From assembly GCF_056712565.1 (NCBI RefSeq), contig NZ_CM160072.1: a DNA stretch of 64,000 nucleotides. One strand, written 5' to 3'. A model generated the notes under the pieces. That model was not told where the DNA came from, ran no database searches, and saw only the letters and a list, made by a program, of their open reading frames with translations. A program made the position numbers and the translations under genes. Positions 26,100 to 27,208 of the stretch are shown here, piece after piece (positions within the stretch are counted from its first letter, which is position 1; each line of letters starts with the position of its first letter).

Positions 26100-26127
26100 T
26101 GAACGGAGATAATCCCTCACCTAACCG

Positions 26128-26167
26128 GCCCCTTGTTACAGTTGTGTACAAGGGGCCTGATTTTTAT
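26128..26167 (+). terminator. Rho-independent terminator of mgtS
   Basis: 10-bp stem ggccccttgt/acaaggggcc followed by a T-run. Confidence 0.6.
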
Positions 26168-26171
26168 GACG

Positions 26172-26285
26172 GCGAAAAAAAACCGCCAGTAAACCGGCGG
26201 TGAATGCTTGCATGGATAGATTTGTGTTTTGCTTTTACGCTAACAGGCATTTTCCTGCACTGATAACGGATCGTTGACACAGTAG
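26172..26285 (-). ncRNA. mgrR: Candidate PhoP-dependent sRNA MgrR (about 100-110 nt); ends approximate
   Basis: Minus-strand terminator hairpin plus U8 at ~26172-26203, PhoP-box direct repeat ~100 nt upstream; known mgrR location between mgtS and dgcZ; the RNA sequence itself was not verified. Confidence 0.4.
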
Positions 26286-26306
26286 CATCAGTTTTCTCAA
26301 TGAATG

Positions 26307-26323
26307 TTAAACGGAGCTTAAAC
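26307..26323 (-). promoter_or_regulatory. PhoP box (GTTTAA-N5-GTTTAA direct repeat) overlapping the dgcZ stop codon
   Basis: Minus-strand sequence GTTTAAgctccGTTTAA; hexamers 11 bp apart. Confidence 0.45.
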
Positions 26324-27208
26324 TCGGTTAATCACATTTTGTTCGTCAATAAACATGCAGCGATTCCTTCCGGTTTGCTTACCCTCATACATTGCCCTGT
26401 CCGCTCTTCCAATGACCACATCCAGAGGCTCTTCAGGAAATGCACGACTCACACCAGCAGTCACGGTAATGTTGATATGCCCTTCAGAATGTGTGATGGC
26501 ATGGTTATCGACTAACTGGCAAATTCTGACACCTGCACGACATGCTTCTTCATCATTAGTCGCTTTGACAATAATGATAAATTCTTCGCCCCCGTAGCGA
26601 TAAACCGTTTCGTAATCGCGCGTCCAACTGGCTAAGTAAGTTGCGAGGGTGCGTAATACTACATCGCCGATTAAATGCCCGTAGGTATCATTAACCAATT
26701 TAAATCGGTCTATATCCAACAACATTAAATAAAGATTCAGAGGTTCAGCATTGCGTAACTGATGATCGAAGGATTCATCAAGAACCCGACGACCCGGCAA
26801 TCCCGTCAGAACATCCATACTGCTACGGATCGTCAGCAAATAAATTTTGTAATCGGTTAATGCCGCAGTAAAAGAAAGCAACCCTTCCTGAAAAGCGTCG
26901 AAATGCGCGTCCTGCCAGTGATTTTCAACAATAGCCAGCATTAATTCCCGACCACAGTTATGCATATGTTGATGGGCAGAATCCATTAGCCGAACATAAG
27001 GTAATTCATCGTTATCGAGTGGTCCCAGATGATCAATCCACCGACCAAACTGGCACAGTCCATAAGAATGGTTATCCGTTATTTCTGGCTTACTGGCATC
27101 TCTCGCGACTACGCTGCGAAACATACTTACCAGCCACTGGTAGTGGGCATCGATAGCCTTATTGAGATTTAACAAGATGGCATCAATTTCCGTTGTCTTC
27201 TTGATCAT
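26318..27208 (-). CDS. dgcZ: Zinc-sensing diguanylate cyclase DgcZ (CZB plus GGDEF), 296 aa
   Basis: MIKKTTEIDAILLNLNKAIDAHYQWL... with GGEEF motif. Confidence 0.9.
   Translation of the reverse strand: MIKKTTEIDAILLNLNKAIDAHYQWLVSMFRSVVARDASKPEITDNHSYGLCQFGRWIDHLGPLDNDELPYVRLMDSAHQHMHNCGRELMLAIVENHWQDAHFDAFQEGLLSFTAALTDYKIYLLTIRSSMDVLTGLPGRRVLDESFDHQLRNAEPLNLYLMLLDIDRFKLVNDTYGHLIGDVVLRTLATYLASWTRDYETVYRYGGEEFIIIVKATNDEEACRAGVRICQLVDNHAITHSEGHINITVTAGVSRAFPEEPLDVVIGRADRAMYEGKQTGRNRCMFIDEQNVINRV

What the first reader, a model, noticed from the sequence alone, without database searches (positions are those of the whole stretch)
26100..26330. Convergent mgtS and candidate mgrR with back-to-back terminators; PhoP box inside the dgcZ 3' end
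The mgtS hairpin/T-run terminator (26128-26167) is followed immediately by an opposite-strand hairpin with a U8 tail (~26172-26203). About 100 nt upstream on the minus strand is a direct repeat GTTTAA-N5-GTTTAA (26307-26323) with the 11-bp periodicity of PhoP boxes; it overlaps the dgcZ stop codon. This fits the PhoP-activated sRNA MgrR in its known location, but no convincing -10 hexamer was found and the RNA sequence is not verified.
Basis: partly seen in the sequence, partly recalled or inferred. Interest (0 to 1): 0.45.

Follow-up and report, generated by a model that had tools for sequence, protein, structure and literature searches.

The report
Known MgrR small RNA gene
This stretch is the already well-studied E. 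coli small regulatory RNA MgrR, sitting tail-to-tail with the small-protein genes mgtS/mgtT and driven by a magnesium-sensing (PhoP) promoter that starts inside the end of the neighbouring dgcZ gene, so the finding is correct but ordinary.

Summary
Window 26175-26272 (minus strand) is the 98-nt Hfq-dependent sRNA MgrR. It hits Rfam RF01407/STnc560 at 281.9 bits (threshold 55). It differs at 1 of 266 aligned bases from the K-12 region where mgrR (b4698) is annotated, and it lies between mgtS/mgtT and dgcZ as in K-12. The "missing" -10 is an extended -10, TGcTACTGT (26287-26279), ending 7 nt before the annotated G start at 26272.

Two refinements:
- **Box register.** In about 100 Enterobacteriaceae mgrR promoters the conserved direct repeat lies one helical turn downstream (CGTTTA-N5-CATTGA, 26313-26297, -41 to -25), 12 nt from the -10. 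The distal hexamer scores above background only in Escherichia, Salmonella and Citrobacter. Which pair PhoP uses in E. coli cannot be settled here.
- **mgtS terminator.** This hairpin lies inside the annotated small ORF mgtT, which runs on across the complement of the MgrR terminator.

Novelty: already known. Interest: low.

The parts
26175..26272 (-). mgrR gene: the 98-nt Hfq-dependent sRNA MgrR, from the G start at 26272 to the end of the U8 tail at 26175
   Evidence: Rfam RF01407 hit at 26093-26306(-), 281.9 bits. The K-12 annotation mgrR b4698 maps here at a constant offset. The only difference from K-12 is at 26269 (position +4, C instead of U). With this start, residues 55 and 68 are U and A, matching the published U55-A68 numbering.
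26238..26268 (-). MgrR 5' stem-loop (nt 5-35)
   Evidence: MFE fold of the 98-nt RNA is -25.9 kcal/mol, z = -2.9, with 0 of 200 shuffles as stable. A 5' hairpin is kept in 101 homologues despite sequence divergence (median z = -2.3).
26219..26237 (-). Unpaired A-rich linker (nt 36-54), the (ARN)n-like motif reported to bind the distal face of Hfq
   Evidence: Unpaired in the centroid fold. Across homologues the 18 nt before the seed are 90% unpaired and the 20 nt before it are 55% A. The role comes from PMC6239178.
26205..26218 (-). Seed UAUCCAUGCAAGCA (nt 55-68), which pairs with target mRNAs
   Evidence: Predicted duplex with K-12 eptB positions -7 to +8, across the start codon, at -17.6 kcal/mol. 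This is the published pairing region U55-A68. Its invariance in my homologue set follows from the search pattern and is not evidence.
26175..26201 (-). MgrR intrinsic terminator: stem-loop 26201-26182 plus U8 tail 26182-26175, which is also the Hfq proximal-face binding module
   Evidence: Terminator scan and fold. Compensatory changes occur across 86 homologues; at the innermost pair (next to the loop) the counts are A-U 55, G-C 20, U-G 3.
26279..26287 (-). Extended -10 element TGcTACTGT: TG at -15/-14 and hexamer TACTGT at -12 to -7
   Evidence: It ends 7 nt before the annotated start. TG is present in 97 of 100 unique homologous promoters, and the T, A and T of TAnnnT are 94-100% conserved.
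26297..26313 (-). Family-conserved PhoP-box register CGTTTA-ACATT-CATTGA (-41 to -25), 12 nt upstream of the -10
   Evidence: G, T, T and A of the upstream hexamer and the TT of the downstream hexamer are invariant in 100 unique promoters, and the spacing is fixed at 12 nt. This is architecture I of Zwir et al. 2012 (PMC3335776).
26308..26324 (-). Its distal hexamer (26324-26319) covers the dgcZ Val codon and stop
   Evidence: Sequence. Published position -52 to -36. The distal hexamer is not conserved across the family (information content 0.45 bit or less). It scores above background only in Escherichia, Salmonella and Citrobacter (mean 3.43 of 6 against 1.86).
26318..27208 (-). dgcZ (diguanylate cyclase DgcZ) coding sequence. 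Its last codons overlap the start of the mgrR promoter
   Evidence: ORF list and K-12 / ATCC 11775 annotation.
26004..26099 (+). mgtS (31-aa small protein MgtS), convergent with mgrR
   Evidence: ORF MLGNMNVFMAVLGIILFSGFLAAYFSHKWDD and annotation.
26099..26203 (+). mgtT (34-aa small protein). Its start overlaps the mgtS stop (ATGA). It runs through the plus-strand hairpin and across 29 nt of the complement of the MgrR 3' end
   Evidence: ORF. Annotated in K-12 as b4775 and in RefSeq genomes. Expression and the operon with mgtS are reported in bioRxiv 10.1101/511675 and PMC11429745.
26127..26167 (+). Plus-strand G+C-rich hairpin (26127-26157) followed by TGATTTTTAT. This is the presumed intrinsic terminator of the mgtS transcript and lies inside mgtT
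   Evidence: Fold. It is also modelled as a helix in the Rfam STnc560 alignment.
25903..25937 (+). Candidate PhoP-dependent mgtS promoter: AATTCA-GCCTT-CGTTTA, then 12 nt, then TAATAT
   Evidence: The same arrangement (xxTTCA-N5-TGTTTA, 12 nt, TAnTAT) recurs upstream of most of the 43 unique mgtS promoters from other species, though not in Kluyvera and a few others. PhoQP dependence of mgtS-mgtT is reported in PMC11429745.

Best explanation
Window 26175-26272 (minus strand) encodes MgrR, a 98-nt trans-acting, Hfq-dependent small RNA.

Transcription. It starts at G 26272 from a promoter with an extended -10 (TGcTACTGT) and no -35 element. Phosphorylated PhoP activates it by binding a phased GTTTA-type repeat between -52 and -25. 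The upstream end of that repeat overlaps the dgcZ stop codon. Low Mg2+/Ca2+ sensed by PhoQ therefore switches MgrR on.

The RNA. It has a 5' hairpin, an unpaired A-rich stretch, a 14-nt seed (UAUCCAUGCAAGCA) and a terminator hairpin with a U8 tail. Hfq holds the U tail and the A-rich stretch. The seed pairs across the start codon of eptB, and with other reported targets such as ygdQ and pitA, and represses them. This changes LPS modification and Mg2+/phosphate balance.

Neighbours. mgrR lies tail-to-tail with the PhoP-activated mgtS-mgtT operon, with separate one-directional terminators 7-9 nt apart.

Shown here: identity, boundaries, structure, promoter anatomy and conservation. Taken from the literature: PhoP/PhoQ dependence, Hfq dependence and the targets. 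Inferred: which pair of hexamers PhoP occupies.
For: - **Identity.** Rfam STnc560 at 281.9 bits, E = 3.4e-65, full-length model match. The region is 265/266 identical to K-12, where mgrR b4698 is annotated. The same locus is present in 5,416 of 5,426 complete E. coli genomes.
- **Anatomy.** The terminator was found by the scan. The fold gives z = -2.9. Across about 100 species the 5' hairpin, the unpaired A-rich linker and the terminator are kept, with compensatory pairs in the terminator.
- **Seed.** It pairs with eptB -7 to +8, matching the published U55-A68 region (PMC6239178).
- **Promoter.** The conserved elements are xGTTTA-N5-xxTTxA, then 12 nt, then TGnTAnnnT, in 100 unique promoters. 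This geometry is PhoP architecture I; the upstream register, 23 nt from the -10, fits architecture III (PMC3335776).
- **Published regulation.** The PhoP site is placed at -52 to -36 and MgrR rises at low Mg2+ (PMC8313858). PhoP/Q dependence is also stated in PMC6239178, PMC4651636 and PMC12721325.
- **Convergent partner.** mgtS carries the same type of promoter and is PhoQP-dependent (PMC11429745).
Against: - Nothing contradicts the identity.
- No expression data exist for this strain.
- The loose PhoP consensus is not enriched in the window, and the generic sigma-70 scan sees no promoter.
- The eptB duplex energy is matched by 82 of 1000 shuffled seeds. Only its position supports it, not its energy.
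- The proximal hexamer CATTGA matches the PhoP half-site at only 3 of 6 positions.
- The primary paper (Moon & Gottesman 2009) could not be read here. Its content is cited second-hand or from my own knowledge.
Confidence: 0.97

Rival explanations
1. The gene is MgrR, but the working PhoP site is the family-conserved repeat CGTTTA-N5-CATTGA at -41 to -25. That is class II, architecture I: it replaces the -35 element and sits 12 nt from the -10. On this reading the reader's distal hexamer over the dgcZ stop codon is a by-product of the Val-stop codons (GTT TAA) or at most an accessory half-site.
For: - In 100 unique promoters the -41 to -25 repeat and its 12-nt spacing to the extended -10 are conserved. 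The -52 to -47 hexamer carries no information (0.45 bit or less).
- dgcZ lies upstream in only 17 of 107 species.
- There is no -35-like hexamer between the published box and the -10 (read directly from the sequence).
- The convergent mgtS promoter also uses the 12-nt geometry.
- Architecture I is the commonest form for ancestral PhoP targets (PMC3335776).
Against: - In this window CATTGA matches the half-site at only 3 of 6 positions, whereas AGTTTA matches at 5 of 6.
- The published assignment is -52 to -36.
- In Escherichia, Salmonella and Citrobacter the proximal hexamer is weaker (mean 2.57 against 4.03) and the distal one stronger (3.43 against 1.86) than in other genera. That pattern suggests a real shift of function. 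These species are related, however, so it may reflect only one or two evolutionary events.
Confidence: 0.45
2. In E. coli, MgrR is at least partly a 3'-UTR product of dgcZ. No terminator separates the dgcZ stop from mgrR, so dgcZ transcripts would run into mgrR and end at its terminator. Processing could then release the sRNA independently of PhoP.
For: No terminator-like site lies between 26318 and 26272. The mgrR promoter overlaps the end of dgcZ.
Against: - A complete, conserved PhoP-type promoter with an extended -10 sits at the correct distance from the annotated 5' end.
- That promoter is kept in the 80-plus percent of species in which no dgcZ was found in the up to 2.5 kb of upstream sequence available; some loci are shorter.
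- The literature describes MgrR as PhoP/Q-dependent.
- Read-through may happen, but it is not needed to explain the RNA.
Confidence: 0.05
3. The hairpins and repeat are chance features of an intergenic region, with no RNA gene.
For: The loose PhoP consensus with up to 2 mismatches is as frequent as chance predicts. No generic sigma-70 promoter was found.
Against: - The covariance model scores five times its threshold.
- The region is near-identical to an annotated, experimentally studied gene.
- Promoter, seed flanks and terminator are conserved in about 100 species.
Confidence: 0.01

Closest known systems
MgrR sRNA of E. coli K-12 (b4698; Moon & Gottesman 2009), filed in Rfam as RF01407 STnc560
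   Same: Same locus between mgtS/mgtT and dgcZ, same 98-nt length and ends, and the same seed, A-rich stretch, terminator and promoter. The RNA is 97/98 identical.
   Different: One base differs: C instead of U at position +4 (window 26269). C is the common state in other species (GATCCG). The Rfam model (214 nt) is wider than the RNA. It also spans 34 nt of promoter and the complement of the mgtS hairpin.
PhoP-activated promoters of architecture I (mgtA, phoP, slyB) and architecture III (rstA, ompX), as defined by Zwir et al. 2012 (PMC3335776)
   Same: A direct GTTTA-type repeat with 11-bp phasing in the direct orientation. One register lies 12 nt from the -10 (architecture I) and the other 23 nt from it (architecture III). 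There is no -35 hexamer.
   Different: Three phased hexamers are present instead of two. The register with the better consensus match (5+5 of 12, with both mismatches at the T/G position) is not the one conserved across the family. No footprint is available.
Class II Hfq-binding sRNAs such as ChiX
   Same: A U-rich 3' tail for the proximal face of Hfq plus an internal A-rich (ARN)-like stretch for the distal face (PMC6239178). Both features are present in this sequence.
   Different: MgrR has a different seed, different targets and a different regulator. ChiX is not PhoP-dependent.

Membership tests
MgrR / Rfam RF01407 STnc560 | Covariance-model score at or above the family's gathering score (55 bits) | tested here: met
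   281.9 bits, E = 3.4e-65, model positions 1-214 of 214, window 26093-26306 on the minus strand.
MgrR / Rfam RF01407 STnc560 | Sequence identity with the annotated E. coli K-12 mgrR gene and the same neighbours (mgtS/mgtT downstream and convergent, dgcZ upstream) | tested here: met
   265/266 identical over the gene and its flanks. Gene order ydeE-mgtS-mgtT-mgrR-dgcZ as in NC_000913.3.
MgrR / Rfam RF01407 STnc560 | Seed (nt 55-68) complementary to the eptB translation start region | tested here: met
   Predicted duplex of MgrR 55-68 with eptB -7 to +8 at -17.6 kcal/mol. The position matches the published one, but the energy alone is not significant (82 of 1000 shuffles).
MgrR / Rfam RF01407 STnc560 | Rho-independent terminator with a long U tail (the Hfq-binding module) | tested here: met
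   8-pair stem, loop of 4, U8 tail. Compensatory changes in 86 homologues.
MgrR / Rfam RF01407 STnc560 | Expression depends on PhoP/PhoQ and low Mg2+; stability and function depend on Hfq | not testable with these tools
   Known only from the literature for K-12, EPEC and Salmonella (PMC6239178, PMC8313858, PMC12721325).
PhoP-activated promoter (PhoP box) | Direct repeat (T/G)GTTTA-N5-(T/G)GTTTA with at most 2-3 mismatches | tested here: met
   The -52 to -36 register, AGTTTAAGCTCCGTTTA, has 2 mismatches, both at the T/G position. The conserved -41 to -25 register, CGTTTAACATTCATTGA, has 4 mismatches and would fail this criterion on its own.
PhoP-activated promoter (PhoP box) | Box in the direct orientation at an allowed distance from the -10 hexamer (11-12 nt or 21-23 nt) | tested here: met
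   12 nt for the -41 to -25 register and 23 nt for the -52 to -36 register, measured to TACTGT at 26284-26279.
PhoP-activated promoter (PhoP box) | PhoP-P binds the site and is required for transcription | not testable with these tools
   The published site is described as 'consensus motif identification', not a footprint.
Intrinsic (Rho-independent) terminator, mgtS side | G+C-rich hairpin followed directly by a U-rich tract on the transcribed strand | tested here: met
   Stem-loop 26127-26157 followed by UGAUUUUUAU. The simple scan missed it because the stem has an internal bulge. Its efficiency is unknown, and the mgtT ORF needs read-through.

The most novel reading that the evidence does not exclude
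In the Escherichia, Salmonella and Citrobacter lineage the PhoP site of mgrR may have moved or extended one helical turn upstream. In E. coli it would then reach into the dgcZ stop codon. The ancestral class II site (-41 to -25) would have decayed (CATTGA/CATTGG), and a distal hexamer would now give either a three-hexamer site or an architecture-III-like site dependent on the RNA polymerase alpha C-terminal domain. That would change the Mg2+ threshold or kinetics of MgrR induction relative to Enterobacter and Klebsiella. It would also tie the last codons of dgcZ to promoter function.
Probability: 0.3. Interest if true: 0.3.

Novelty: already known. Interest (0 to 1): 0.1.

Why it matters
As a finding it adds nothing new. 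MgrR, its PhoP/PhoQ control, its Hfq binding and its eptB, ygdQ and pitA targets are established, and its convergent arrangement with mgtS/mgtT has been published. The check does show that the first-stage reader can recognise a real sRNA gene from terminators plus an activator box alone. It also supplies exact coordinates for this strain.

The one small open point is which pair of the three phased hexamers PhoP uses in E. coli. The site cited in the literature rests on a consensus match, while the family-wide conserved site lies 11 bp downstream. This bears on promoter-architecture models of the PhoP regulon and can be settled cheaply with point mutants.

Tried and rejected
- **Papers not held.** Moon & Gottesman 2009 (PMID 19889087, PMC2841474), Yin et al. 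2019 (PMC6351178) and Moon et al. 2013 (PMC3765083) are not in the library. The published box position therefore comes second-hand from PMC8313858.
- **Full-text searches.** Searches for the box sequences and for 'mgrR promoter' found nothing. No paper holds both 'STnc560' and 'MgrR'. The equivalence therefore rests on coordinates: Rfam model positions 35-132 coincide with the annotated mgrR.
- **Generic sigma-70 scan.** It found no promoter, as expected for an activator-dependent promoter with an extended -10 and no -35.
- **First automatic promoter scoring.** It chose the upstream register plus a weak AAAACT -10 for E. coli. I rejected this because that TSS (about 26283) disagrees with the annotated 98-nt RNA and the published residue numbering. 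The homologous TGnTAnnnT is also conserved elsewhere.
- **RNAalifold on the MAFFT alignment of 86 homologues.** It recovered only the terminator, because the 5' hairpin is misaligned between genera. I replaced it with per-sequence folding.
- **Full-length MgrR/eptB duplexfold.** It gave a meaningless 84-nt duplex no better than shuffles. I replaced it with a search restricted to the single-stranded region.
- **Ascertainment.** Invariance of the seed and U-run in the homologue set follows from the search pattern and is not used as evidence.
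Full report
**What is in the sequence**

The interval 26100-26330 lies between the small ORF mgtS (26004-26099, plus strand, MLGNMNVFMAVLGIILFSGFLAAYFSHKWDD) and the 3' end of dgcZ (26318-27208, minus strand).

On the plus strand a G+C-rich stem-loop (26127-26157) is followed by TGATTTTTAT. The fold of 26095-26215 gives -41 kcal/mol with z = -3.9.

On the minus strand, 7-9 nt further on, sits a textbook intrinsic terminator. Its stem is 26201-26182 with 8 pairs and a loop of 4, followed by a T8 run at 26182-26175 whose first T closes the stem. 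The scan picked it up.

About 100 nt upstream on the minus strand is GTTTAA-GCTCC-GTTTAA (26323-26307). Its first copy contains the dgcZ Val codon and TAA stop (26323-26318).

The core GTTTA-N6-GTTTA occurs 3 times in the window against 0.13 expected. The looser 17-mer consensus with two mismatches is no more frequent than chance, at 24 against 17.5.

**Identity**

- A scan against Rfam gives one hit above threshold in 20000-32000. It is RF01407 'STnc560 Hfq binding RNA' at 26093-26306 (minus strand), 281.9 bits against a gathering score of 55, E = 3.4e-65, covering the whole model.
- In E. coli K-12 MG1655 the same locus is annotated ydeE, mgtS (b4599), mgtT (b4775), ncRNA mgrR (b4698, 1622817-1622914, minus strand, 98 nt), dgcZ.
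- The window aligns to that region without gaps and with one mismatch in 266 columns. This places mgrR at window 26175-26272.
- The single difference is position +4 of the RNA (26269), C here and U in K-12. C is the usual state in other species.
- The 541-bp region is present in 5,416 of 5,426 complete E. coli genomes. It is 100% identical in strains such as ATCC 11775.
- With the start at 26272, residues 55 and 68 are U and A. This matches the residue names used in the biochemical study of MgrR (PMC6239178).

**Anatomy of the RNA**

The 98-nt RNA folds at -25.9 kcal/mol (z = -2.9; none of 200 shuffles as stable). It has four parts:
- a 5' hairpin (nt 5-35);
- an unpaired A-rich stretch (nt 36-54);
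- an unpaired seed UAUCCAUGCAAGCA (nt 55-68);
- the terminator hairpin with a U8 tail.

PMC6239178 describes the same layout. In that account the A-rich (ARN)-like stretch and the U tail bind opposite faces of Hfq, and U55-A68 pairs with eptB and ygdQ.

A duplex search restricted to the unpaired region pairs MgrR 55-68 with eptB -7 to +8, across the start codon, at -17.6 kcal/mol. The position agrees with the literature. The energy alone is unremarkable, since 82 of 1000 shuffles do as well.

**Comparative evidence**

One scan of the species-representative genome collection used the seed plus a T7 run as the pattern. About 105 of them are mgrR homologues from Enterobacteriaceae, including Escherichia, Salmonella, Citrobacter, Enterobacter, Klebsiella, Raoultella, Kluyvera, Kosakonia, Leclercia, Lelliottia and Franconibacter.

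Seven of ten distant examples reach the Rfam STnc560 threshold on their own. Seed and U-run invariance in this set follows from the search pattern and is not counted as evidence. The following observations are independent of it:
- Each of 101 homologues keeps a 5' hairpin (median z = -2.3). Each also keeps an unpaired, A-rich linker before the seed (90% unpaired, 55% A).
- The terminator stem shows compensatory changes. At the innermost pair (next to the loop) the counts are A-U 55, G-C 20 and U-G 3.
- mgtS is convergent with mgrR in 49 of 107 loci. dgcZ is upstream in only 17, all Escherichia or Citrobacter. Some loci are short, so these are lower bounds.

I anchored 100 unique promoters on their common elements. 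The anchoring itself scored the hexamers, the TG and the -10, so conservation at those positions is partly built in. Unscored positions (-42, -32/-31, -24) are conserved too, which supports the alignment. The conserved signal is as follows:

| Position | Element | Conservation |
|---|---|---|
| -41 to -36 | xGTTTA | G, T, T, A invariant |
| -32/-31 | TT | 82-89% |
| -29 to -25 | ATTGA | TT invariant |
| -15/-14 | TG | 97 of 100 |
| -12 to -7 | TAnnnT | T, A, T 94-100% |

The spacing between the repeat and the -10 is fixed at 12 nt.

In the window this reads CGTTTA-ACATT-CATTGA (26313-26297), then GAAAACTGATGC, then TACTGT (26284-26279), then GTCAAC, then G(+1). There is no -35 hexamer.

This geometry is 'architecture I' of PhoP-activated promoters: a single direct box 12 nt from the -10, class II activation (PMC3335776).

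That distance fits 'architecture III' (21-23 nt, as in rstA and ompX). It is also the site credited to Moon & Gottesman 2009, given as '-52 to -36, consensus motif identification' in PMC8313858.

The window therefore carries three phased hexamers:

| Hexamer | Sequence | Match to half-site |
|---|---|---|
| Distal | AGTTTA | 5/6 |
| Middle | CGTTTA | 5/6 |
| Proximal | CATTGA | 3/6 |

The distal hexamer has no family-wide conservation (0.45 bit or less per position). The clades differ, however:

| Clade | Promoters | Distal mean | Proximal mean |
|---|---|---|---|
| Escherichia, Salmonella, Citrobacter | 23 | 3.43 | 2.57 |
| Other genera | 77 | 1.86 (random is about 1.75) | 4.03 |

These species are related, so this may reflect one or two evolutionary events rather than many. 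I cannot decide computationally which pair PhoP occupies in E. coli. I rate the conserved register at about 0.45 as the main activating site. Either way the promoter is PhoP-type, and its upstream edge reaches the end of dgcZ.

The convergent mgtS promoter has the same 12-nt geometry: AATTCA-GCCTT-CGTTTA, then 12 nt, then TAATAT (25903-25937). This is conserved in most of the 43 unique mgtS promoters, though not in Kluyvera and a few others. It is consistent with the reported PhoQP dependence of mgtS-mgtT (PMC11429745).

**The tail-to-tail junction**

The two terminators each work in one direction only. The plus-strand hairpin has a U-rich tract only on its plus-strand 3' side. The MgrR hairpin has its U8 only on the minus strand. 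If each works, the two RNAs end 7-9 nt apart without overlapping.

However, the annotated 34-aa ORF mgtT (26099-26203) starts at the mgtS stop (ATGA) and runs through the plus-strand hairpin. It then crosses the complement of the MgrR terminator. MgtT has been detected by epitope tagging and behaves as part of a PhoQP-dependent mgtS-mgtT operon (bioRxiv 10.1101/511675 and PMC11429745).

Full-length MgtT therefore needs read-through of the 'mgtS terminator'. That read-through RNA would be antisense to at least 29 nt of the MgrR 3' end. I did not pursue this.

**Mechanism, with the basis for each step**

1. PhoQ senses low Mg2+/Ca2+ and PhoP-P activates the mgrR promoter. Basis: literature. The promoter anatomy shown here is consistent with it.
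2. Transcription starts at 26272 and ends at the U8 tail. Basis: annotation plus sequence and structure shown here.
3. Hfq binds the U tail and the A-rich stretch. Basis: literature. Both features are present.
4. The seed pairs over the eptB start codon and with other targets, and represses them. Basis: literature. The complementarity is shown here.

**Rivals considered**

- A different PhoP-box register, discussed above.
- MgrR as a processed dgcZ 3' UTR. No terminator lies between dgcZ and mgrR. But a complete conserved promoter is kept in the many species in which no dgcZ was found upstream.
- Chance. Excluded.

**Verdict**

This is the known MgrR gene, so novelty is 'already known' and interest is low (0.1). 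The only residual question is which hexamer pair PhoP uses in E. coli. The most novel reading still open is a lineage-specific upstream shift of the PhoP site into the dgcZ stop codon (probability about 0.3, interest about 0.3 if true).

Noticed in passing
window 1168-1184 (minus strand): TGTTTAGTCGCTGTTTA is a perfect 17-nt match to the PhoP-box consensus (0 mismatches). It is followed 11 nt later by CATAAT. It lies about 275 nt upstream of a fimA-like major fimbrial subunit gene on the same strand (about 893-330; WP_001296074.1 in NZ_CP033092.2). This may be a PhoP-activated fimbrial promoter.
   Followed up: partly
window 163-179 (plus strand): TGTTTATTGATCGTTTA matches the PhoP-box consensus with one mismatch. 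It lies in the AT-rich gap between the fimA-like gene and the chaperone gene, on the opposite strand, with no -10 at a sensible distance. It is probably chance.
   Followed up: partly
window 26099-26203 (plus strand): The mgtT ORF runs through the plus-strand hairpin and T-run (26127-26167) and the complement of the MgrR terminator. Full-length MgtT needs terminator read-through, and that RNA would be antisense to at least 29 nt of the MgrR 3' end. mgtT-like ORFs were found by tblastn in 27 of 107 homologous loci, mostly as partial matches.
   Followed up: partly
window 25903-25937 (plus strand): mgtS has its own PhoP-type promoter (AATTCA-N5-CGTTTA, 12 nt, TAATAT). In it the stronger half-site is the downstream one. 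The arrangement is conserved in most of the 43 unique mgtS promoters from other species.
   Followed up: yes
window 26272-26318 (minus strand): No terminator-like structure lies between the dgcZ stop codon and the MgrR start. dgcZ mRNA probably reads through mgrR and ends at the MgrR terminator, carrying the sRNA sequence in its 3' UTR.
   Followed up: no
window 26179-26195 (minus strand): The loop and 3' arm of the MgrR terminator (GGTTTACTGGCGGTTTT) match the PhoP-box consensus with one mismatch. This is almost certainly a coincidence of a G/T-rich hairpin.
   Followed up: no
L028 1408-1451 and 3001-3045 (Enterobacteriaceae bacterium RIT691): This genome has two mgrR-like copies about 1.6 kb apart on the same strand. 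One has the conserved PhoP-type promoter. The other lacks it and is the copy convergent with mgtS. This may be a paralogous sRNA pair under different control.
   Followed up: no
L030 (MAG labelled Caldithrix sp.), L105 (labelled Chryseobacterium sp. 18061), L091 (MAG labelled Raoultella): These records carry E. coli-like (99% identical), Enterobacteriaceae-type or Citrobacter-type mgtS-mgrR loci that do not fit their labels. Contamination or mis-binning in the public assemblies is likely.
   Followed up: no
L027 (Escherichia coli strain SCPM-O-B-8794), position homologous to window 26318-26324: The dgcZ stop TAA reads TTA in this genome (AGTTTT instead of AGTTTA). The dgcZ frame would then continue for 7 codons and end at the TGA inside the proximal hexamer CATTGA. 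The coding end and the promoter hexamers are intertwined differently in this lineage.
   Followed up: no
L122, L076, L013, L049, L121 (Kluyvera spp.): In these loci the mgtS stop codon lies only about 12 nt from the MgrR 3' end. That leaves no room for a separate mgtS terminator, so the MgrR hairpin may act in both directions there.
   Followed up: no
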